Shown: positions 11,937 through 54,040 of the stretch, one piece after another
How positions within the stretch are numbered: the stretch's first letter is position 1
How the letters are laid out: each line of letters opens with the position of its first letter
Assembly (NCBI GenBank): GCA_902571005.1
Contig: CACGAG010000004.1
Coordinates: 64,178-128,177, forward strand
Reading direction: 5' to 3'
Length of the DNA: 64,000 bases
DNA from: an uncultured Pelagibacteraceae bacterium
GTDB lineage: Bacteria > Pseudomonadota > Alphaproteobacteria > Pelagibacterales > AG-422-B15
Position numbers and translations under genes: made by a program
The notes under the pieces: generated by a model
Databases searched by the model: none
The model's input: the letters and a program-made list of their open reading frames with translations, nothing else
What the model was told of the DNA's origin: nothing

Positions 11937-13567
11937 CTTGCTCTATAAAAACTGGTCTCTACATCAGGTAAAGTTTCTTTTTTAAGGATGAGATCAGATG
12001 CCTTTTCAGCGATCATTACAGTTGTTGCATTGAGATTTCCTGTAATGATATTTGGCATTATTGAAGCATCTACAACTCTTAAATTTTCAATCCCATAAAC
12101 TTTGAGCTCTTCATCGACAACAGATAACTCATCTTTTCCCATCTTGCATGTACAAGAAGGATGATAAGCAGTATCACCTTTATTTTTAATGAATTCATTT
12201 AAATCACCCTCAGAGCTTGAATTTATTCCAGGGTTAATTTCTTTTCCTCGATATTTATCAAAAGCTTTTTGATGAAAAATTTCCCTTGCAATTTTAATAC
12301 CATCTCTCATTTCTTTTAAATCATGCTCTGTCTGCATATAATTAAACTGTATAGCGGGTGAAGCTGAGGGATTGTTTGACTTTAATTTGACATGTCCTCT
12401 ACTTGTTGGCCTCATTGGTCCTACATGCGCTTGAAAAGAATGAGAGCTTGGAGATTGTCTTCCATGATCCAATACAAGCGATGGAAAGAAGTGATACTGA
12501 ATATTAGGATAATCAACCATATCATTACTTCTCACGAAGCCGCCTGTCTCTAAGTTTGAATATGCTGCCACTCCAGATTTAAAAATAAACCACTCTATCC
12601 CTATGAATGCCATTCTTATTGGATTATATGATGTGTAAAGTGTAACGGGCTTTGTACACTCATATTGTAAATAAGTTTCAAGATGATCCTGTAAATTTTC
12701 ACCTACACCTCTTAGGTCATATTGAACAGAAATATCTAATTTTTTTAGTTCTTCAGCATTTCCTATACCTGAAAGCATTAGAAGTTGAGGTGAATTTATT
12801 GCTCCAGCTGATAATATCACTTCATTTTCAGCATGTATTTTTTTTCTCTCTCTTCCTGTAGTACATTCAACCCCAACGGCTTTATTATTTTCAATGATAA
12901 CTTTGTTTACTATTGTGTTTGTAATGACGGTAAGATTTCTTCTGTTAATAACTGGATGCAAGTAAGTTACACTCGTACTTTGTCTTCTGCCTCCATAAAT
13001 AGTGGTGTCCATTAGACCAAATCCCTCTTGCTTATATCCATTCATGTCATTATTTATCTCATAGCCGGCTTGTTCTGCCGCTTCTAGGTAGACTTTACTC
13101 AATTCATTGCCTTCCGAAGATCGAGATAGTTTTAAAGGACCGCTTTTATTCCTATAAGTTTCATCTAATCCTTCAATTGACTCTGATTTTTTAAAATACG
13201 GAAGAACATTATTATAATTCCATGACTTAAGATCTTTTTGAGCCCAGTTTTCAAAATCCATTGGATTTCCTCTTACATGAACCATACCGTTGTGTGATGA
13301 ACTTCCTCCCAACATCTTTCCTCTTGGGCAAAACATTTTTCTATTGTTCATGAACGGTTCAGGCTCAGTTTCGTATAAATAATTATATTTTGGGTCATGC
13401 ATTGTGTATAATAAAGCTGCTGGCATTGAGGTTTTCCATGTTTTATCCGATGGACCTGACTCTATTAACAATACATTTATCTCTGGATCAGCTGAAAGTC
13501 TATTTGCCAGAACACAACCCGCACTTCCGGCACCAATAATAATATAATTATAAGAATTAAATTGCAT
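11933..13567 (-). CDS. betA: Choline dehydrogenase/oxidase (GMC oxidoreductase)
   Basis: GAGSAG FAD motif, MPAAL, RGKMLGGSSSHNG, YHPSCTCKMG, GNLNA; located in a betaine cluster. Confidence 0.8.
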   Translation of the reverse strand: MQFNSYNYIIIGAGSAGCVLANRLSADPEINVLLIESGPSDKTWKTSMPAALLYTMHDPKYNYLYETEPEPFMNNRKMFCPRGKMLGGSSSHNGMVHVRGNPMDFENWAQKDLKSWNYNNVLPYFKKSESIEGLDETYRNKSGPLKLSRSSEGNELSKVYLEAAEQAGYEINNDMNGYKQEGFGLMDTTIYGGRRQSTSVTYLHPVINRRNLTVITNTIVNKVIIENNKAVGVECTTGRERKKIHAENEVILSAGAINSPQLLMLSGIGNAEELKKLDISVQYDLRGVGENLQDHLETYLQYECTKPVTLYTSYNPIRMAFIGIEWFIFKSGVAAYSNLETGGFVRSNDMVDYPNIQYHFFPSLVLDHGRQSPSSHSFQAHVGPMRPTSRGHVKLKSNNPSASPAIQFNYMQTEHDLKEMRDGIKIAREIFHQKAFDKYRGKEINPGINSSSEGDLNEFIKNKGDTAYHPSCTCKMGKDELSVVDEELKVYGIENLRVVDASIMPNIITGNLNATTVMIAEKASDLILKKETLPDVETSFYRAS

Positions 13568-44510: not shown

Positions 44511-45395
44511 ATGAAAATTCTATTTATTGGCCCTACAAGAATAGGTGACACAATACTATCTACTTCAATATTAAACTTTTATATTAAAAAGTTTGATAAA
44601 TGCAGCATTTCAGTTGTAACAAGTTCATTTGCAAAAGATTTATATAAATTTATGCCTCACCTTCATGAAATAATTGTAGTTGATAAAAAAAGATTTGGCC
44701 TTCATTGGTATAATATAATTAAATTTTCAATTTTTAAGAAATGGGATTTAGTAATTGATTTAAGATCATCAGCAACCTCTTATTTTTTGAATACAAAAAA
44801 AAGAATGATATTTAGAGGAAACGAACTATCACATAAAGTTATGCAATTTAGTAAATTTATAGACACTAAGGAAGCTCTTATTCCAGAAATATGGTATAGC
44901 CAAGAAGATGAAGATATAAGTTATAAAAAAATAAAATATGATGATCATTTAATTGCTGTTGCGCCATATTCTAATTGGCCAAAGAAGGATTGGTCATTGA
45001 AAAAATATAAAAATCTTTTTCAAAATGAATTTTTTAAAAACCACACATTAATACTAACAGGCGTTTCAAGGGATATTGTTAATAAAAGGGAAATAGAGGA
45101 ATTTATCAAGACGTCAGAATTAGAAATAATTAATTTATTTGATTGGGGAAATTTGAGAAATATGGTTCCCATATTTAAGAAATGCCGTTTTTTTATTGGA
45201 AGCGACAGTGGTCTGATGCATCTTGCGGCATCTTCAGGATGTAAGACATTTGCTCTTTTTGGACCTACGAATGATTTGGTATATGGACCATGGGGAAATC
45301 ACAAAGTAATTAAATCAGATAAAGATCAAGATTATGGTCTTGAAAATTTACCTGTTGAAAAGGTACTAAATAGCATAAAAGAATACATAAGATGA
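44511..45395 (+). CDS. Glycosyltransferase family 9 (heptosyltransferase-like)
   Basis: RIGDTIL, WDLVIDLR, FIGSDSGLMHLAA, ALFGPT. Confidence 0.88.
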   Translation: MKILFIGPTRIGDTILSTSILNFYIKKFDKCSISVVTSSFAKDLYKFMPHLHEIIVVDKKRFGLHWYNIIKFSIFKKWDLVIDLRSSATSYFLNTKKRMIFRGNELSHKVMQFSKFIDTKEALIPEIWYSQEDEDISYKKIKYDDHLIAVAPYSNWPKKDWSLKKYKNLFQNEFFKNHTLILTGVSRDIVNKREIEEFIKTSELEIINLFDWGNLRNMVPIFKKCRFFIGSDSGLMHLAASSGCKTFALFGPTNDLVYGPWGNHKVIKSDKDQDYGLENLPVEKVLNSIKEYIR

Positions 45396-47546: not shown

Positions 47547-48641
47547 ATGGAAAACAATGTAAATAGCATAAAGGGAAATAATCCTATTGTAGTAGCTATG
47601 TCAGGCGGTGTTGACTCTTCAGTAGCTGCTGCGCTCATGAATAAGGATTATGAAGATGTAATAGGTGTTACTCTGAGACTATATGATGAAAAAAAAGTAG
47701 CAAACTCTAAAACATGTTGTTCGGGTGCGGATATAATGGATGCAAAAAAAATAGCTAACACCATAACTATACCACATTACGTTTTTGACTATGAGGAAAT
47801 TTTTAGAAAAAATGTTATTGAGCCTTTTATTAACGAATATAAATCAGGGAGAACCCCCATACCTTGCATAAATTGTAATGAAAAAGTAAAGTTTCTTGAT
47901 TTACTTTCTTTTGCAAAAGAAATTAATGCGAAATCATTAGTGACAGGGCATTATATAAAAAAAGCAAAGATTGATAATGAATGGCGATTGTATGTTCCAC
48001 AAGATAAAGAACGAGATCAGTCCTATTTTCTTTTTACGATGAAAAAAGAGGATCTAGATCTCATCGAATTCCCTCTGGGTGATTACAAAAAAGATGAGAT
48101 CAGGGATTTAGCTTTAAAACTAAACTTACACGTGTTCGATAAAAGTGATAGTCAGGATATTTGTTTTATACCTGATGGTGATTATAAAAAATTTATTAAT
48201 AAGAGCATTAAATTCAATGAGGGTGAAGTTGTAGATTTAGACGGAAATGTACTTAATAAACATGAAGGTATTCAAAACTTCACAATAGGACAAAGAAGAG
48301 GTTTAGGAGTTTCACAGGATGAGCCACTTTATGTAAAAAAAATTGATAAAGATAAAAACAGAATCATTGTGGCAAATAAGGATAATATTAGTTCCTCAAT
48401 TATATATGTTGAAAATATAAACTTAATTACAAACAAATTACCCGAGAATCTATATGTAAGAGTTAGATCGACTGGAAAATTATTAGATGCAAAAATAGAA
48501 ATCAATAAAAAGAATGGCGCAAAAATTTCTTTAGCAACTCCTGAAACAGCTATATCACCAGGTCAGGCCTGCGTTTTTTATTGTAAAGATGAAATAGGTA
48601 TACGACTTTTGGGAGGCGGTTGGATCCATTCGACAAATTAG
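47547..48641 (+). CDS. mnmA: tRNA 2-thiouridylase
   Basis: AMSGGVDSS, TPIPCINCN..VKF, TGHY, DQSYFL, SQDICF, PGQACVFY. Confidence 0.96.
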   Translation: MENNVNSIKGNNPIVVAMSGGVDSSVAAALMNKDYEDVIGVTLRLYDEKKVANSKTCCSGADIMDAKKIANTITIPHYVFDYEEIFRKNVIEPFINEYKSGRTPIPCINCNEKVKFLDLLSFAKEINAKSLVTGHYIKKAKIDNEWRLYVPQDKERDQSYFLFTMKKEDLDLIEFPLGDYKKDEIRDLALKLNLHVFDKSDSQDICFIPDGDYKKFINKSIKFNEGEVVDLDGNVLNKHEGIQNFTIGQRRGLGVSQDEPLYVKKIDKDKNRIIVANKDNISSSIIYVENINLITNKLPENLYVRVRSTGKLLDAKIEINKKNGAKISLATPETAISPGQACVFYCKDEIGIRLLGGGWIHSTN

Positions 48642-48668
48642 TAATATTGTATATTATGTCTCATCTTT

Positions 48669-48745
48669 GGCGGGGTAGCTCAGTTGGTTAGAGCGGAGGA
48701 ATCATAATCCTTAGGTCGGGGGTTCAAATCCCTCTCCCGCTACCA
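48669..48745 (+). tRNA. tRNA-Met (elongator, anticodon CAT)
   Basis: Cloverleaf; acceptor GGCGGGG/TCCCGCT; anticodon arm GAGGA-ATCATAA-TCCTT; encoded CCA. Confidence 0.92.
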
Positions 48746-48752
48746 AACAATA

Positions 48753-49997
48753 ATGTGGGATATTAGTTTGTTCTTAAAATTAAATATTTTTAAAATTCTT
48801 TTCATTAATACCTTATTCTTCATTAATGTTAATTTGTTATTTGCGGGTGAGTTAGCAATTATTAATTCTGAAAATGATAGATTTTTACTAGATAGTAAAA
48901 TTTACGAAAGAGCAAGAAAAGAGGGCATTGAAATCCATGATAGTAATGAGAGCTTGTCATATGATTATTCTAATTCACCAATAAATATAGAGGAAATAAT
49001 AAATAATAATTTTGATATTAATAAGAGTGACTATCCTTTTTTATTAGAAAAAAGTATTGTAGAAATAAATAACAATCCCAACTTTTCTATAAAAAAGCAA
49101 ATTCAAGATGAATTAATTAATAGAGTCATCGATAATAAAGAGCTTTTCAAGTATATGATTGGTTATCATAACATATTCACTTTGAAAGAATTTGAATTTG
49201 TAAGAAAAATTGAAAAGCAAATACATTATTTAGAAATTACAGGTCGATTTGGTCAGGTAATTTCTGGTATTTGTAAGTTTCAAGACTCTAATTCTGACAT
49301 AGTAATGGTTCTAATTACAGGTAGAGGAACTACAGCAAAAGCAATAATGGGCATGTCAGATAATATTGATTATTCAAATAATTTTGGAAAACATAGCTTC
49401 GAAAAGTTAAAAATAAATGTTTGTGCTATTGATATGTTCCCGCACGGAGATTTTCCATTACATCCTTATGGCTTATCAGGAAGAGGTGTATCCATTCTAG
49501 CGATTGAAGATTTTTTGCATTTCATAAAACAAAACTATGAAAACCAAACGAAAAAGTTAATTTTAGGTGGTATATCTAATGGTGGTCATATTGCCGAATA
49601 TACAAGCGTTATATCCGAGGATGTTGATGCAGTTATTTCAGCTAGTTCAGCATCAAGATCGGATTACTCATATTCACCTTATTCAAAGCTTAGTCTTGAT
49701 GGAGAAAAATACAGAAATTCTGACAAATCTTATGCAATGTTTGACTCCCTTTTTAGATCTGGCAGGATTTACAGACTTATTTCACCCAAGCCTCTTATCA
49801 TATCAATTGGTACTCACGACGGACATATAAGACAGAGTGATTCTGATTTTCCAGACAAAATAGACCAACTTAAAATCGCAAAAGAAGCTTATGGTAACAG
49901 TGAATGTTTGAAAATAAACTTATTTCGTGGAGGCCATGCATTCAACCCAAATCCAGACATAAAAAATATTCAATTAATTATTCAAAACTGCTTATAA
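48753..49997 (+). CDS. Exported/membrane-anchored alpha/beta-hydrolase (islet cargo)
   Basis: Hydrophobic N-terminus; nucleophile elbow GGISNGG, candidate Asp in SIGTHD and His in RGGH. Confidence 0.65.
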   Translation: MWDISLFLKLNIFKILFINTLFFINVNLLFAGELAIINSENDRFLLDSKIYERARKEGIEIHDSNESLSYDYSNSPINIEEIINNNFDINKSDYPFLLEKSIVEINNNPNFSIKKQIQDELINRVIDNKELFKYMIGYHNIFTLKEFEFVRKIEKQIHYLEITGRFGQVISGICKFQDSNSDIVMVLITGRGTTAKAIMGMSDNIDYSNNFGKHSFEKLKINVCAIDMFPHGDFPLHPYGLSGRGVSILAIEDFLHFIKQNYENQTKKLILGGISNGGHIAEYTSVISEDVDAVISASSASRSDYSYSPYSKLSLDGEKYRNSDKSYAMFDSLFRSGRIYRLISPKPLIISIGTHDGHIRQSDSDFPDKIDQLKIAKEAYGNSECLKINLFRGGHAFNPNPDIKNIQLIIQNCL

Positions 49998-50031
49998 TTT
50001 AAATTTCTCTTAAGAATCGGCTCTTTTTATT

Positions 50032-50076
50032 ATCATAATCCTTAGGTCGGAGGTTCAAATCCCTCTCCCGCTACCA
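50032..50076 (+). repeat. 3' fragment of tRNA-Met (att-like direct repeat)
   Basis: ATCATAATCCTTAGGTCGGAGGTTCAAATCCCTCTCCCGCTACCA; single G>A at 50051 relative to 48720. Confidence 0.95.
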
Positions 50077-50095
50077 TAAAATTTCTTAAATTGAC

Positions 50096-51211
50096 TTATT
50101 TAGATGCATCAAGGTATTCAATAATTTTTTTATCCCATGCATAGTTTTCATTAGCTCTTAACTTTCCATTTGCTCCCATACTTTCTCTTAGCTTTTTATT
50201 TTCAAGTAAGTATAAGATTTTTTCTGTGATCATTTTTTGATTACCAGGCTCACATATTATTCCTGTCTCATTATCTAAAATTGCGTCGCTTACTCCACCG
50301 CTATTACTTCCAATTGATGCAACACCATGAAATGAAGCATCAATGTAAGCCATACCAAATCCTTCAACTGATTCTCCCACAGTTGTAGGTGTCATAACAA
50401 ATAAATCGGATTGTTTTAGAATTAATGATTTTTCTGGTTCAGTTATCCATCCAAGAAACTTCACATTTTTCTCTAAATTCTTTTTTTTAGATATTTGTTT
50501 TATAGTTTCTAAATATGGACCTTTTCCTGCTATCAAATATAATACATTTGGAAATTTTTCCTTAATCACAGGTAATGCATTTAAAATAAATATATGACCT
50601 TTTCTCTTTTCAACTCTTGCAAGAGTTGTTATCACAGGTGAGTTTTTACCAATAATATTGGCTACATTTTTTTTATCTTCCTCAGTAATAAAATCATCAT
50701 AAACGTCTATACCTGGATGAATGATTTTTATGAGGTTTGTGTCTATTTTGAGAGAGGCTTGCATTAAATCCTTCGTGTAAGAAGAATTTGCCAAGATCTT
50801 ATAGACATTTTTGTAAGAATTAATAATTCTATTTTTTTTAAATCTTAATAAATCAAGCATTATAGTCCAATACTGTTTTGGAATTTCAGTCCCATGAGCA
50901 AGTACCAAAATTTTTTCCCTATATTTTTTCAAATATTCAATGCTTTTCCATGAGTCTGCATATATTGCTTTTACGTTTCTACTATTGCATATTTTTTCTA
51001 CGTACCTTGCTTTAGCCAATCTTCTGAGAGGTTTCCATCCTTTAAATCTTTTAATTTTATATTTTTGTTTACGATCAGTTTCGTGAGTTTTGCCATCAGC
51101 TAAAACGAGAACTTCAATGCCACGATTTGCCATAGCTTCTGCCATTCCAGTCATTAAAGATTCAATACCTCCAATTTTTGGAGCAAAGCATTGAGTTGTG
51201 ATAATGATCAC
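50096..51211 (-). CDS. Glycosyltransferase family 4 (PimA/PimB-like)
   Basis: F.PKIGGIE, ANSSYT, ARVEKRKG, EGFGMAYIDA, SGGVSDAI. Confidence 0.88.
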   Translation of the reverse strand: MIIITTQCFAPKIGGIESLMTGMAEAMANRGIEVLVLADGKTHETDRKQKYKIKRFKGWKPLRRLAKARYVEKICNSRNVKAIYADSWKSIEYLKKYREKILVLAHGTEIPKQYWTIMLDLLRFKKNRIINSYKNVYKILANSSYTKDLMQASLKIDTNLIKIIHPGIDVYDDFITEEDKKNVANIIGKNSPVITTLARVEKRKGHIFILNALPVIKEKFPNVLYLIAGKGPYLETIKQISKKKNLEKNVKFLGWITEPEKSLILKQSDLFVMTPTTVGESVEGFGMAYIDASFHGVASIGSNSGGVSDAILDNETGIICEPGNQKMITEKILYLLENKKLRESMGANGKLRANENYAWDKKIIEYLDASK

Positions 51212-51851: not shown

Positions 51852-52382
51852 ATGATCTATTCACTCGGAGATAAAAAAATAAATCAAGATAATGTAGACT
51901 TCTGGGTCGCACCAAGTGCCTCTGTGATAGGAAATATTACATTGAAAAAAAATGCAAGTGTATGGTTTGGAGCTGTTTTAAGGGGTGACAATGACCCAAT
52001 AATTGTCGGTGAAAATTCTAATATTCAAGATAATTCTGTTTGTCATACGGATGATGGAATGCCATTAATGATAGGGGACAATGTCACAGTAGGTCATAAA
52101 GTTATCTTACATAGTTGTTCAGTGGGCAATAATTCTCTCATAGGAATGGGCTCAACAGTTTTAAATAAGGCAAAAATAGGTAATAATTGTTTGGTTGGCG
52201 CTAATACTCTAATAACTGAGGGAAAAGAATTTCCTGACAATAGCCTTATAGTGGGATCCCCTGGAACTGTTAAAAGAGAATTGACAGATATGGAAAAAAA
52301 GATAATTGAATTTAGTGCTTTTCACTATGTTGAAAATATGAAAAAATTTAGGCATAATTTAAAAGAAGAAAATATTGAATGA
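51852..52382 (+). CDS. Gamma-carbonic anhydrase-family hexapeptide-repeat protein
   Basis: WFGAVLRGD, SNIQDNSVCH, TVGHKVILH. Confidence 0.9.
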   Translation: MIYSLGDKKINQDNVDFWVAPSASVIGNITLKKNASVWFGAVLRGDNDPIIVGENSNIQDNSVCHTDDGMPLMIGDNVTVGHKVILHSCSVGNNSLIGMGSTVLNKAKIGNNCLVGANTLITEGKEFPDNSLIVGSPGTVKRELTDMEKKIIEFSAFHYVENMKKFRHNLKEENIE

Positions 52383-54040
52383 ATAATTTTGACTACATAA
52401 TTGCTGGAGCAGGTTCAGCTGGTTGCGTTTTAGCGAATAGACTCTCAAAAGATCCTGATACAAAGGTTCTTTTAATTGAAGCAGGCGGAACTACATGGCA
52501 TCCATTTGTTAAAATGCCAGCAGGCGTACTAGAGCTAATTTCGGGTGAAGGTGCTGGTAAATTTTATAATTATGGCTATTGGACAGAGGGTCAACCACAT
52601 TTAAACAATAGAAAACTTTTCTTCCCTCGAGGTAAGGGCTTGGGTGGCTCAAGTAATATTAATGGAATGCTCTACGTGAGAGGTCATTCACGTGATTATG
52701 ATATATGGAGACAGCTTGGCAATGAAGGATGGTCTTATGAGGAAGTGTTGCCTTATTTTAAAAGAGCTGAAAAAAATGAAAACGGGTCATCGGAATTTCA
52801 TGGAAGTGATGGGGAGTTAAGTGTTCAAAACCCAGTGTTTACAAATAACCCTCTGCATCGATGTTTTTTAAATGCTGGTAAAGAGGCAGGCTATAAATAC
52901 ATTGAAGACATCAATCAATACGATAATGAGGGTTTTGGACCATGTCCTCAGACGATTTCAAATGGGTATAGAGCAAGTACGAGTTTTTCATTTTTAAATC
53001 CTATTAAAGACAGAAATAATTTAACGATTGCAACTAACTCTACAACCAATAAATTATTATTTGAAGGCACAAAATGCGTTGGGCTTGAGTATTTAAAAGG
53101 AAAAGAAGTTACAAAAGCATATGCAGAAAGAGAAGTAATTGTATGTGGAGGTGCTATTAACTCACCACAGATATTACAACTATCAGGAATAGGTAAAGGG
53201 GATTACATAAAAAAATGGGGATTAAAAGTTGTTGCTGATCTTCCAGGAGTAGGTGAAAACTTACAAGACCATTTAGATGTATTGTCTCATTATGAGTGTA
53301 CGCAGCCTGTAACAGAAGCGAAATATACAGCAGGCGGACTTGCAATGTTTAGAATGGCGGCGATCTTGGCTCAGTGGATGATAACAAAAAAAGGCCCTGG
53401 AAATGATATAGGCTTGTCTGGTGTATCATTTTTAAAAACAGATGACACTCTTGACCTTCCAGACATACAAATGCATTTTGTTGGTTCACTATTAAAAGAT
53501 CATGGAAAAACAAGACCTGACTCTCATGCGTTCAGTAATCATGTTTGTCAGCTCAGACCTGAGAGTAGAGGCTATATTGCACTAAAATCATTGGATCCTA
53601 CAGTGCCTCCAATTATACAACCAAATTATTTCGCAACTCAAAAAGATCGAGATACTCTTATTAAAGGTGTGAAAATGTCACGAGAAATAGTGAACCAGTC
53701 TGCTTTTGATGAATACCGAGGTAAAGAAATAACACCAGGTATTCATGTTCAAACAGACGAGGAAATAGAGGAATTTATTAGAAACGCTGCTGAAACGATT
53801 TATCATCCAGTTGGCACTTGTAAAATGGGAAGTGATGAATTTGCAGTTGTAGATGATAAATTAAGAGTAAGAGGTATCGAAAATTTAAGAGTAGTTGATG
53901 CGTCGATAATGCCAACTCTAATTGGTGGAAACACCAACGCACCTACAATTATGATAGCTGACAAAATTTCAGATCATATTCTTGGCAATGAATTCCTTCC
54001 ATCTCAGCATGTTAGTTACAAAGATAAAAACGCTGCATAA
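52379..54040 (+). CDS. Second GMC oxidoreductase (choline dehydrogenase/AlkJ family)
   Basis: AGAGSAG, GGSSNINGM, YHPVGTCKMG, GNTNAP. Confidence 0.88.
   Translation: MNNFDYIIAGAGSAGCVLANRLSKDPDTKVLLIEAGGTTWHPFVKMPAGVLELISGEGAGKFYNYGYWTEGQPHLNNRKLFFPRGKGLGGSSNINGMLYVRGHSRDYDIWRQLGNEGWSYEEVLPYFKRAEKNENGSSEFHGSDGELSVQNPVFTNNPLHRCFLNAGKEAGYKYIEDINQYDNEGFGPCPQTISNGYRASTSFSFLNPIKDRNNLTIATNSTTNKLLFEGTKCVGLEYLKGKEVTKAYAEREVIVCGGAINSPQILQLSGIGKGDYIKKWGLKVVADLPGVGENLQDHLDVLSHYECTQPVTEAKYTAGGLAMFRMAAILAQWMITKKGPGNDIGLSGVSFLKTDDTLDLPDIQMHFVGSLLKDHGKTRPDSHAFSNHVCQLRPESRGYIALKSLDPTVPPIIQPNYFATQKDRDTLIKGVKMSREIVNQSAFDEYRGKEITPGIHVQTDEEIEEFIRNAAETIYHPVGTCKMGSDEFAVVDDKLRVRGIENLRVVDASIMPTLIGGNTNAPTIMIADKISDHILGNEFLPSQHVSYKDKNAA

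What the first reader, a model, noticed from the sequence alone, without database searches (positions are those of the whole stretch)
48701..50076. Minimal integrase-less islet with anticodon-loop-type att repeats at tRNA-Met
Seen: a 45-bp direct repeat (44/45 identical) starting exactly at the first base of the 7-nt anticodon loop and ending at CCA. It encloses only 1286 bp with one gene and no integrase, excisionase or replication gene. The distal copy has G>A at tRNA position 51, which would break the G51-C63 T-stem pair if excision rebuilt the tRNA from it. Established: many tyrosine integrases cross over in the anticodon loop and leave such repeats. Inference: either a decayed prophage or satellite reduced to one useful gene, or a cassette delivered in trans by an unlinked integrase, i.e. 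a tRNA-anchored single-gene exchange system.
Basis: partly seen in the sequence, partly recalled or inferred. Interest (0 to 1): 0.7.

Follow-up and report, generated by a model that had tools for sequence, protein, structure and literature searches.

The report
Fossil mobile-element scar at SAR11 tRNA-Met
A single hydrolase gene sitting between two copies of the 3' part of a tRNA-Met gene in a SAR11 (Pelagibacter) genome is what is left of a tiny integrating mobile element: the vehicle (integrase, excisionase-like gene, binding arms) has been deleted and only the delivered gene and the recombination scar remain.

Summary
tRNA-Met(CAT) lies at 48669-48745. Its last 45 nt (anticodon loop to CCA) recur at 50032-50076 with one G>A change at 50051. 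The repeats enclose 1,286 bp holding one ORF and no mobility gene.

The genome is Pelagibacteraceae. An independent Tara scaffold has the same structure, so it is not an assembly artefact. In 22 related single-cell genomes the site is empty in 17. Five carry other small islets between the same repeats, with different cargo: ArsI, an epimerase and a methyltransferase.

Metagenome contigs reveal the parent family. These are 3.3-6.7 kb circular or head-to-tail elements. They encode a 453-aa arm-domain tyrosine integrase, a small HTH protein and a ~160-aa protein. Their attP core equals the 45-mer and is flanked by paired TTGGTACA arm sites.

Some sister islets keep both arms and an integrase stump. 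They are about 99% identical across hosts whose flanks differ by 6-13%.

The window's islet keeps only the core repeats plus 21 nt of one arm. It is best read as an immobilised fossil that delivered a secreted alpha/beta-hydrolase gene. The kind is known from tycheposon remnants and VEIME-like elements, so this is a new, well-documented member. Trans-mobilisation of the arm-retaining relatives remains an open and more interesting possibility.

The parts
48630..48657 (+). Sigma-70-like promoter (TCGACA-16-TATTAT, 10 of 12) ending 12 nt before the tRNA. It is the likely tRNA-Met promoter and, by read-through, the likely promoter of the cargo gene.
   Evidence: One search gives this as the best promoter-like site in 48400-50300 and finds no terminator-like site between the tRNA and the ORF. 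The function is inferred.
48669..48745 (+). Intact tRNA-Met(CAT) gene. Its 3' 45 nt (48701-48745) are the proximal att copy (attL core).
   Evidence: The 77-nt sequence is found unchanged in all 22 SAR11 SAG loci.
48753..49997 (+). Cargo gene, 414 aa. It has an N-terminal signal-peptide-like hydrophobic segment, four Cys invariant among its homologues, a GGISNGG nucleophile elbow and a C-terminal GGHA motif. It is predicted to be a secreted alpha/beta-hydrolase-fold serine hydrolase (esterase- or peptidase-like). The ATG lies only 7 nt after the tRNA's CCA.
   Evidence: Pfam Hydrolase_4 only at E=0.0037. Only 3 homologue clusters in 5.8 billion proteins, at 31-40% identity. AlphaFold model pLDDT 57.6, pTM 0.61. 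Foldseek top hits are esterases, acetyl-xylan esterases and acylaminoacyl peptidases at E about 1e-9.
50011..50031 (+). 21-nt remnant of the element's P arm (TAAGAATCGGCTCTTTTTATT), abutting the distal core.
   Evidence: 19 of 21 identical, in the same register, to the P arm of free element L044 (CAAGAATCGACTCTTTTTATT). 62 of 65 identical to L060 when the core is included.
50032..50076 (+). Distal att copy (attR core), 44 of 45 identical to the tRNA 3' part, with G>A at 50051 (tRNA position 51).
   Evidence: The same substitution is present in the independent scaffold L008.
47547..48641 (+). Conserved left flank: mnmA (tRNA 2-thiouridylase).
   Evidence: Pfam tRNA_Me_trans E=4e-71. Syntenic in all 22 SAG loci.
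50096..51211 (-). Conserved right flank: GT4-family glycosyltransferase. In empty-site genomes its stop lies roughly 10-35 nt after the tRNA.
   Evidence: Pfam Glycos_transf_1 E=3e-37. Synteny.

Best explanation
The feature is the attL-cargo-attR scar of a site-specific integration into the SAR11 tRNA-Met(CAU) gene.

The integrating agent was a member of a family of very small integrative elements, 3.3-6.7 kb. These elements encode a 453-aa tyrosine integrase with an N-terminal arm-DNA-binding domain, a 72-86-aa HTH protein (AlpA/excisionase-like) and a ~160-aa protein of unknown function. Variable cargo lies between the HTH gene and the integrase gene. Their attP consists of a P arm, a 45-nt core identical to the tRNA from the first anticodon-loop base to CCA, and a P' arm. 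Each arm carries a pair of TTGGTACA arm-type sites.

Recombination between attP and the tRNA rebuilt an intact tRNA at the proximal junction. It left the element-derived 45-mer distally, next to the glycosyltransferase gene.

In this genome later deletions removed the integrase, the HTH gene, the 160-aa gene and both arms. What remains is one intact cargo gene (a secreted alpha/beta-hydrolase), 21 nt of P arm and the two cores. Without arm sites or an integrase the islet is now immobile. The G>A change in the distal copy is drift in an att site that is no longer used.

Loss of the P' arm, which in the free elements starts with a hairpin right after CCA, placed the cargo ATG 7 nt after the tRNA. 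The gene is therefore probably transcribed by read-through from the tRNA promoter.

Shown here: the repeats; empty and alternatively filled sites in relatives; the existence and attP of the elements; hybrid junctions in sister islets; the arm remnant; and the absence of arm sites. Inferred: the order of events, the crossover position within the core, current immobility, co-transcription with the tRNA, and the cargo's enzymatic activity.
For: (1) Repeat and tRNA geometry.

(2) The locus is SAR11. mnmA and 10 further flanking genes are syntenic in 22 Pelagibacteraceae SAG loci. Of these, 17 have the tRNA directly followed by GT4. Five have a second 45-mer at spacings of 764-1445 bp. Their cargo is ArsI/CadI (NF041414, E=6e-41), an NAD-dependent epimerase, or an MTS methyltransferase. 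Metagenome locus L037 carries DUF4910 plus Antibiotic_NAT.

(3) A metagenome scan for the P-arm/core junction gave 13 contigs. Twelve of them lack the tRNA 5' half and SAR11 core flanks. Most encode a 453-aa integrase beginning about 260 bp from the core, plus the HTH and ~160-aa proteins. The integrase matches Arm-DNA-bind_3 at E=2.7e-9 and phrog_1 integrase at E=6e-26, and the HTH protein matches HTH_17 at E=3.8e-5.

(4) These elements assemble as circles or head-to-tail repeats. L049 has a 6,503-bp period with an 850-bp overlap at 100%. L050 has a 3,824-bp period over 2,857 bp at 100%. L044 has a 6,691-bp period at 95.7%.

(5) Sister islets L009, L019, L020 and L017 have junctions of the form tRNA + P' arm and P arm + GT4 flank. 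Their arms match specific free elements (L041/L049 type and L047 type). They keep arm-type sites at the conserved positions, both sites of each pair in L009/L019/L020 and one TTGGGACA per arm in L017. L009/L019/L020 also carry integrase stumps: residues 1-87, or 1-35 fused to 402-453.

(6) The window's 21 nt upstream of the distal core match the L044/L046/L060-type P arm. No TTGG[GT]ACA motif occurs in the window islet, nor in L025 or L037.

(7) There is no integrase, HTH or p160 homologue anywhere in the window.

(8) The best promoter-like site lies immediately upstream of the tRNA, and no terminator-like site lies before the ORF.
Against: The window's islet itself contains no integrase remnant. 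Its link to the element family rests on the identical core plus 21 nt of arm.

The cargo gene was not found in any intact element. Its only homologues (31-40% identity) lie in unrelated contexts, next to a Peptidase_S74 protein in polysaccharide islands of other bacteria.

No full-length element was seen integrated at this site. All integrase-bearing contigs are 10.9 kb or shorter.

Mobility, circularity versus concatemer form, and integrase activity are all inferred from sequence alone.

The islet is identical in the window and in scaffold L008 while their flanks differ at 9 of about 590 positions. This could hint at more recent movement than the word 'fossil' implies. However, the flank differences fall in two tight clusters, as recombination patches would.
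Confidence: 0.82

Rival explanations
1. The islet is a non-autonomous cassette that is still exchanged. An integrase supplied in trans by a co-resident or infecting full-length element excises and integrates it, making tRNA-Met a single-gene exchange site (CIME-like).
For: Integrase-less ArsI islets in L009, L020 and metagenome locus L059 are 99.0-99.4% identical, while their chromosomal flanks are only 87-94% identical. The mismatch density changes within 2 bp of the end of the distal core. These islets keep all four arm-type sites. The window and L008 show 0 differences in the islet against 9 in the flanks.
Against: The window's islet has lost both arms and has no arm-type site. The family's integrase has an arm-binding domain, which in lambda/P4-type systems is needed for attP function and excision (established knowledge). 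The distal core carries a substitution. No excised or attP-type junction of any integrase-less unit was found in the contigs examined. The window and L008 differ too little overall to discriminate between the readings.
Confidence: 0.08
2. The islet, whatever its origin, now spreads and is swapped among SAR11 cells only by homologous recombination. The conserved tRNA/mnmA and GT4 flanks, or the att repeats themselves, act as homology arms, and site-specific recombination plays no part.
For: The flanks are highly syntenic core genes. The neighbouring genes GT9, GT4 and GMC show allele replacement patterns typical of recombination. In window versus L008 the flank mismatches form two clusters, as imported patches would. 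SAR11 is reported to exchange DNA at high frequency (PMC7542561).
Against: For the ArsI islets the right-hand boundary of near-identity coincides with the end of the att core to within 2 bp. Flank-mediated recombination would not give this unless the recipient already carried a related islet. This reading explains spread but not origin. The hybrid arm junctions show that integrase-type insertion created the islets.
Confidence: 0.07
3. It is the remnant of a temperate pelagiphage (prophage) that used tRNA-Met, not of a small non-viral or satellite element.
For: Temperate pelagiphages integrate into SAR11 tRNA genes, and prophage PNP1 is reported to use a tRNA-Met (PMC8477408).
Against: The 45-mer and the junction pattern have no exact match in IMG/VR. 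The tRNA gives only partial tRNA-Met matches in two Erwinia phages in the GenBank phage collection. The integrase's only hit there is 25% identity to an Enterobacter phage integrase, and there are no relatives in IMG/VR. The arm remnant matches the small elements, which carry no recognisable virion genes.
Confidence: 0.02
4. The repeat is a chance match or an assembly or chimera artefact.
For: None found.
Against: Zero matches in 100 shuffles. The same structure occurs in an independent assembly. The same architecture occurs in five SAGs and several metagenome contigs.
Confidence: 0.01

Closest known systems
Tycheposons and their degraded remnants in Prochlorococcus genomic islands (Hackl et al., bioRxiv 10.1101/2020.12.28.424599)
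   Same: The host is a streamlined marine bacterium. A tyrosine-recombinase element integrates into a tRNA gene, leaving a partial-tRNA direct repeat. [quoted passage not shown]
   Different: The parents here are much smaller (3.3-6.7 kb) and have no recognisable helicase, primase or replication module. The site holds a single islet rather than a multi-element island. The integrase's relation to tycheposon recombinase clades was not tested.
VEIMEs, virion-encapsidated integrative mobile elements / marine phage satellites, including Pelagibacter-associated modules (Eppley et al. 2022, PMC9618062; Biller et al. 2025, PMC11876622)
   Same: These are small integrase-bearing elements of Pelagibacter with AlpA-type regulators and no capsid genes. 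They are recovered as head-to-tail concatemers and are integrated near tRNAs. Integrase relatives at 42% identity sit in 7-8 kb elements with a Toprim primase, an AAA_25 protein and an Sf6-type small terminase.
   Different: Encapsidation cannot be tested here. The minimal elements lack terminase and primase genes. No sequence comparison with the published VEIME set was possible. The element is absent from IMG/VR.
CIMEs (cis-mobilisable elements: att-flanked, integrase-less derivatives of integrative elements in Streptococcus). Recalled from my own knowledge, not checked in the paper library.
   Same: DNA flanked by attL and attR derived from an integrative element by loss of the recombination module. 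The arm-retaining sister islets (L009, L017, L019, L020) fit this description.
   Different: The window's islet lacks the arms and is probably not mobilisable. No accretion or trans-excision evidence was obtained.
Anticodon-loop class of tRNA integration sites for tyrosine integrases (Williams 2002, Nucleic Acids Res 30:866, cited in PMC8477408)
   Same: The identity block runs from the anticodon loop to the 3' end of the tRNA, so the tRNA is regenerated on integration.
   Different: The crossover position within the 45-nt block is not determined here.
Temperate pelagiphages integrating at SAR11 tRNA genes (bioRxiv 10.1101/410191; PMC8477408)
   Same: The host clade is the same. Core sequences of 11-46 bp are shared with tRNA genes, and attP lies beside int.
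   Different: There are no virion or phage replication genes, and the genome is ten times smaller. The integrase and core are not found in the phage collections.

Membership tests
Remnant of a tRNA-targeting tyrosine-integrase integrative element (genomic islet) | Direct repeat made of the 3' part of a tRNA gene, with the intact tRNA at one end | tested here: met
   48701-48745 and 50032-50076, 44 of 45 identical. The tRNA is intact.
Remnant of a tRNA-targeting tyrosine-integrase integrative element (genomic islet) | Presence/absence polymorphism: an empty attB in close relatives, with conserved flanks | tested here: met
   17 of 22 SAR11 SAG loci have the tRNA followed directly by GT4. Flanks are syntenic in all.
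Remnant of a tRNA-targeting tyrosine-integrase integrative element (genomic islet) | A free or intact element exists whose attP carries the same core next to an integrase gene | tested here: met
   Metagenome contigs among L038-L051 carry a 453-aa integrase about 260 bp from a core 100% identical to the 45-mer.
Remnant of a tRNA-targeting tyrosine-integrase integrative element (genomic islet) | Element-derived sequence (arm) adjoining the distal repeat | tested here: met
   50011-50031 matches the L044-type P arm at 19 of 21 positions, and 62 of 65 including the core versus L060.
Remnant of a tRNA-targeting tyrosine-integrase integrative element (genomic islet) | Integrase gene or fragment inside the islet | tested here: not met
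   No tblastn match in the window. The feature is met in sister islets L009, L019 and L020. It is not required for a fully decayed remnant.
VEIME / marine phage satellite | Concatemeric DNA packaged in virions | not testable with these tools
   Only assemblies with head-to-tail periodicity were seen, in L049 and L050. The origin of those contigs' samples is unknown.
VEIME / marine phage satellite | Integrase plus AlpA/excisionase-type regulator, and no capsid genes | tested here: met
   Applies to the parent elements, not to the window islet.
VEIME / marine phage satellite | Replication or packaging-hijack genes (primase/helicase, small terminase) | tested here: not met
   None is recognisable in the 3.3-6.7 kb elements. 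They are present only in elements with a 42%-identical integrase.
Tycheposon | Tyrosine recombinase integrating at a tRNA gene and leaving a partial tRNA repeat, with cargo carried | tested here: met
Tycheposon | Membership of the tycheposon recombinase clades and a linked replication module | not tested
No replication module was recognised.
CIME-like trans-mobilisable cassette | Complete att sites (core plus arm-type sites) on both sides without an integrase | tested here: not met
   There is no TTGG[GT]ACA motif in 48701-50076. Arm-type sites are kept at the conserved positions in L009/L019/L020 (both of each pair) and L017 (one per arm).
Integron gene cassette (single-gene exchange) | IntI integrase, attI, and attC imperfect palindromes flanking the cassettes | tested here: not met
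   The repeats are tRNA-derived direct repeats. There is no integrase in the window.

The most novel reading that the evidence does not exclude
The SAR11 tRNA-Met site is a working single-gene exchange point. Integrase-less mini-elements of about 1.2-1.5 kb consist of two ~120-180-bp arms carrying the arm-type sites, one cargo gene such as ArsI, and an integrase stump. They are excised and integrated in trans by the integrase of the co-circulating 3.3-6.7 kb autonomous elements, and possibly travel with them as concatemers. Core-only islets such as the one in the window would be the frozen end state. This would be a MITE-like, non-autonomous layer of a tRNA-targeting integrative element in the most abundant and most streamlined marine bacterium.
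Probability: 0.25. Interest if true: 0.7.

Novelty: new member of a known kind. Interest (0 to 1): 0.45.

Why it matters
SAR11 has one of the most streamlined genomes known and was long thought to be nearly free of mobile DNA.

This locus and its relatives show a complete decay series at one chromosomal site. The series runs from autonomous 3.3-6.7 kb elements, through arm-retaining integrase-less derivatives, to a core-only single-gene islet.

It is a concrete example of how streamlined genomes can gain single accessory genes and then discard the vehicle. The genes gained here include a secreted hydrolase, an ArsI-type arsenic enzyme and sugar-modifying enzymes.

It also yields a defined att core, arm sites and an integrase that could be tested directly. 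These might serve as an integration tool for a group that is hard to manipulate genetically.

Tried and rejected
- **Viral collections.** An exact search for the 45-mer and for the P-arm/core junction in IMG/VR found nothing. Protein-pattern scans of IMG/VR with the integrase N-terminus and with the full-length alignment also found nothing.
- **GenBank phages.** The integrase gave only a 25%-identity hit to an Enterobacter phage integrase. The tRNA gave only partial tRNA-Met hits in Erwinia jumbo phages. A known pelagiphage origin was therefore rejected.
- **Integrase stump search.** Searching proteins with the 95-aa integrase stump returned only short products of 54-126 aa. Two were read in context. 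P0008 (L060) is a truncated call, at residue 115, in an attP-type contig 96.7% identical to full element L046, at 2.9x coverage, so it may be a sequencing error. P0005 (L059) is another chromosomal ArsI islet.
- **Cargo homologues.** P0002, P0003 and P0004 have no tRNA, no 45-mer and no integrase of this family nearby. They gave no link between the cargo and the elements.
- **Solved structures.** Profile searches of PDB sequences with the cargo and with the integrase gave nothing significant. NCBIfam gave nothing for the integrase, HTH protein, p160 or cargo.
- **Other tRNAs.** tRNA-Arg and tRNA-Leu in the window have no partial repeats.
- **Tandem contigs L043 and L048.** Each core in them is flanked by a matching P and P' arm, while the type switch lies in the cargo region. 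I could not tell a heteroconcatemer from a chimeric assembly and did not use them as evidence.
Full report
**1. Observation**

ARAGORN finds tRNA-Met(CAT) at 48669-48745 on the + strand. The last 45 nt of the gene, 48701-48745, recur at 50032-50076 with a single G>A change at 50051. No match of this quality occurs in 100 shuffles of the window.

Counting along the tRNA, the repeat starts at the first base of the anticodon loop (AUCAUAA) and ends at CCA. The substitution lies in the 5' strand of the T stem (canonical position 51) and would unpair 51-63.

The 1,286 bp between the copies hold one long ORF, 48753-49997, 414 aa. The base composition of about 30% G+C is that of the surroundings.

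An independently assembled Tara scaffold (L008) covers window 48271-50266. It differs at 9 positions, all in the flanks. The structure is therefore not an assembly artefact.

**2. Genomic setting**

The left flank is mnmA. The right flank is a GT4 glycosyltransferase on the opposite strand, followed by AhpC-like, hexapeptide-transferase, GMC oxidoreductase and penicillin-amidase genes.

A scan of species-representative genomes with MnmA returned 22 Pelagibacteraceae single-cell genome loci (85-95% amino-acid identity) with the same gene order on both sides. The window is SAR11.

**3. The site is polymorphic**

- In 17 of the 22 loci the tRNA is followed directly by the end of the GT4 gene.
- Five loci have a second copy of the 45-mer, 764-1445 bp downstream, enclosing different DNA:
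  - L009, L019 and L020 carry an ArsI/CadI-family gene (NCBIfam equivalog, E=6e-41) plus a stump of an integrase N-terminus (Arm-DNA-bind_3, E=1.3e-6).
  - L017 carries an NAD-dependent epimerase.
  - L025 carries a small-domain methyltransferase.
- A metagenome contig (L037) has a 2.5-kb islet with DUF4910 and aminoglycoside-N-acetyltransferase-like genes.

**4. The parent elements**

L009-type and L017-type islets share about 120 bp after the proximal core and about 180 bp before the distal core, with unrelated cargo in between.

I used the conserved junction (end of the distal-side arm plus start of the core) as a pattern for the single metagenome scan, which gave 13 contigs. Only L037 carries the tRNA 5' half and the GT4 flank. 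The others form a family of small elements with these features:

- A full-length 453-aa protein has the same N-terminus as the stumps. It matches Arm-DNA-bind_3 (E=2.7e-9) and PHROG integrase family phrog_1 (E=6e-26). It contains SARGKNV…HQIRHT…DKHY, which I read as the R…H-x-x-R…Y catalytic set.
- A 72-86-aa HTH_17-type protein is present (E=3.8e-5; weak PHROG hits to excisionase/regulator families).
- A 156-160-aa protein has no recognisable family.
- In the larger members, cargo lies between the HTH gene and the integrase gene. It is mostly small secreted proteins or lipoproteins, plus one secreted PLD-like protein.

The core in every one of the 13 contigs is 100% identical to the 45-mer.

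Relative to the core start, 6 of 7 elements have TTGGTACA pairs with 11-bp spacing at -163/-152 and at +111/+122. This is the layout expected of arm-type binding sites for an integrase with an arm-binding domain.

Several contigs are longer than one unit:

| Contig | Period (bp) | Overlap |
|---|---|---|
| L049 | 6,503 | 850 bp at 100% |
| L050 (Tara) | 3,824 | 2,857 bp at 100% |
| L044 | 6,691 | 351 bp at 95.7% |
| L047 | ~3,314 | short, about 90% |
| L046 | ~3,288 | short, about 90% |

. The elements therefore exist as circles or head-to-tail multimers.

A database search with the integrase found 36 clusters, all on contigs of 10.9 kb or less. Relatives at 42% identity sit in 7-8 kb elements with a Toprim primase, an AAA_25 protein and an Sf6-type small terminase. 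That is a satellite-like gene set.

**5. Link between the elements and the chromosomal islets**

In L009/L019/L020 and in L017, the sequence after the tRNA is the P' arm of a particular free element type. The sequence before the distal core is the corresponding P arm (L041/L049 type and L047 type). These are the hybrid junctions expected from attP x attB recombination. Arm-type sites are retained at the conserved positions, both sites of each pair in L009/L019/L020 and one TTGGGACA per arm in L017.

The integrase stumps differ. L009 and L020 keep residues 1-87. L019 has residues 1-35 fused in frame to 402-453 at a repeated DLLQN motif. At least two independent internal deletions therefore hit the same ArsI-carrying parent.

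**6. The window's islet within this series**

The 21 nt before its distal core (50011-50031) match the L044/L046/L060-type P arm at 19 of 21 positions in register, or 62 of 65 when the core is included. Upstream of that lies the 3' end of the cargo gene.

After the proximal CCA there is no P' arm; the ORF's ATG follows after 7 nt. No arm-type motif is present. The same is true of L025 and L037. No homologue of the integrase, HTH or 160-aa protein exists anywhere in the 64-kb window.

I conclude that the islet is a deletion end-product: core - cargo - 21 nt of arm - core. With an arm-domain integrase family, loss of both arms should abolish excision. This follows from established lambda/P4-type integrase biology and is an inference here. 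The substitution in the distal core fits an att site no longer under selection. Distal copies in L017 and L025 also carry 1 and 2 changes.

**7. Expression and function of the cargo**

The best promoter-like site in the region ends 12 nt before the tRNA, and no terminator-like site separates the tRNA from the ORF. In the free elements the P' arm begins with a GC-rich hairpin right after CCA. Its loss would allow read-through, which is an inference.

The protein has the following features:

- An N-terminal hydrophobic signal-like segment.
- Four Cys invariant among its four known family members.
- An invariant GGISNGG motif and a C-terminal GGHA motif.
- A weak Hydrolase_4 match.
- A moderate AlphaFold model (pLDDT 57.6, pTM 0.61). 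Its best structural matches are alpha/beta-hydrolase esterases, acetyl-xylan esterases and acylaminoacyl peptidases, at E about 1e-9 and TM 0.4-0.6.

It is most likely a secreted or periplasmic serine hydrolase; the substrate is unknown. Only three homologue clusters exist among 5.8 billion proteins. Two of the three lie next to a Peptidase_S74-domain protein, one of them within a polysaccharide-synthesis island of another bacterium.

**8. Is anything still moving?**

The ArsI islets of L009 and L020 are 99.0% identical over 1.2 kb, while the adjoining 300-bp flank windows are 87-91% identical. The change in mismatch density occurs within 2 bp of the end of the distal core. A fourth copy, 99.4% identical, lies in a metagenome contig (L059) with a GT4 flank. 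The nearest flank relatives of islet-bearing genomes are mostly empty-site genomes.

An integrase-less unit with an identical deletion has therefore entered different SAR11 backgrounds, with boundaries at the att sites. This is what trans-mobilisation would give. Replacement of a resident islet by homologous recombination within the tRNA and the distal core/arm would look the same. I could not separate the two.

For the window's islet the only comparison is L008, with 0 differences in the islet and 9 in about 590 bp of flank, falling in two tight clusters. That is too little to argue for recent movement.

**9. Comparison with what is known**

- tRNA-targeting integrative elements that leave partial-tRNA repeats and decay to fragmented integrases are described for Prochlorococcus tycheposons.
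- Small integrase/AlpA elements found as concatemers in virions (VEIMEs) have Pelagibacter among their main hosts.
- Tycheposon-like and satellite-like regions next to tRNAs are reported in Pelagibacter.
- Temperate pelagiphages also use SAR11 tRNA genes, one of them a tRNA-Met. However, neither the core nor a close integrase is present in the phage collections searched.

The window's feature is therefore a new, unusually clean member of a known kind. The parent elements work like VEIME- or tycheposon-type elements. Their membership of either family was not established: no replication or packaging genes were recognised, and the published sets were not available for comparison.

**10. Verdict**

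The second, a cassette delivered in trans, is unlikely for this islet but remains open for its arm-retaining relatives.

Interest is moderate. The mechanism is known, but the locus gives a complete decay series and defined att/integrase parts in SAR11.

Noticed in passing
L022:11112-13151 (SAG AG-917-N15), equivalent to the window gap 48642-48668: In one SAR11 genome a 679-aa secreted coiled-coil protein gene with no Pfam match is inserted between mnmA and tRNA-Met, that is, upstream of the tRNA. It has no att-type repeat, so a second, different kind of insertion uses the same intergenic neighbourhood.
   Followed up: partly
window 52379-54040 (GMC oxidoreductase), 44511-45395 (GT9), 50096-51211 (GT4): The flanking genes are dimorphic or hypervariable among SAGs. 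GMC is either 96-98% or exactly 73.8% identical in amino acids (L010, L011, L013, L022, L026). GT9 is either 91-96% or 64-70%. GT4 ranges from 62 to 95%. This looks like allele replacement by recombination around the islet site.
   Followed up: no
L019:8202-8411 (- strand): The integrase stump is an in-frame fusion of residues 1-35 to 402-453, joined at a repeated DLLQN motif. It is a microhomology-type internal deletion, distinct from the 1-87 stump in L009 and L020.
   Followed up: partly
L009:1864-2313, L019:7724-8173, L020:11423-11872, L059: The cargo of the arm-retaining islets is an ArsI/CadI-family VOC metalloenzyme (NF041414, 139.5 bits against a cut-off of 116). This is an organoarsenical or heavy-metal resistance-type gene carried by a 1.2-kb integrase-less unit in at least four SAR11 backgrounds.
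   Followed up: partly
L054:3451-6396, L055:5027-7972, L056:2166-5111: Integrases 42% identical to the tRNA-Met family sit in 7-8 kb elements with a DUF7146/Toprim primase, an AAA_25 protein and an Sf6-type small terminase, which is a phage-satellite-like gene set. L053 carries both integrase types and a 45-mer variant with 2 mismatches.
   Followed up: no
L043 and L048 (metagenome contigs FUFK010764409.1 and FUFK010518294.1): Two different ~3.4-kb units (about 75% identical) lie head to tail. Each has its own matching P arm-core-P' arm, and the contigs contain ambiguous bases. This is either a heteroconcatemer or a chimeric assembly; it was not resolved.
   Followed up: partly
P' arm of free elements, e.g. 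immediately after the 45-mer in L049, L045 and L040: A perfect hairpin GCCCCG-TTTTT-CGGGGC starts 5-6 nt after the CCA of the core and could terminate the rebuilt tRNA after integration. It is missing from the window's islet.
   Followed up: no
L001-L006 and L061 (contexts of cargo homologues P0002 and P0003): The only close homologues of the window's cargo lie next to a Peptidase_S74-domain protein, a domain typical of tail-spike chaperones. In L001-L005 they sit inside polysaccharide-biosynthesis islands, with an rve transposase nearby in two loci. L061 also has a FliG_C gene, so that host is not SAR11.
   Followed up: no
window 11948-13561 (- strand): A second GMC-oxidoreductase paralogue, 49% identical to the one at 52379-54040.
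   Followed up: no
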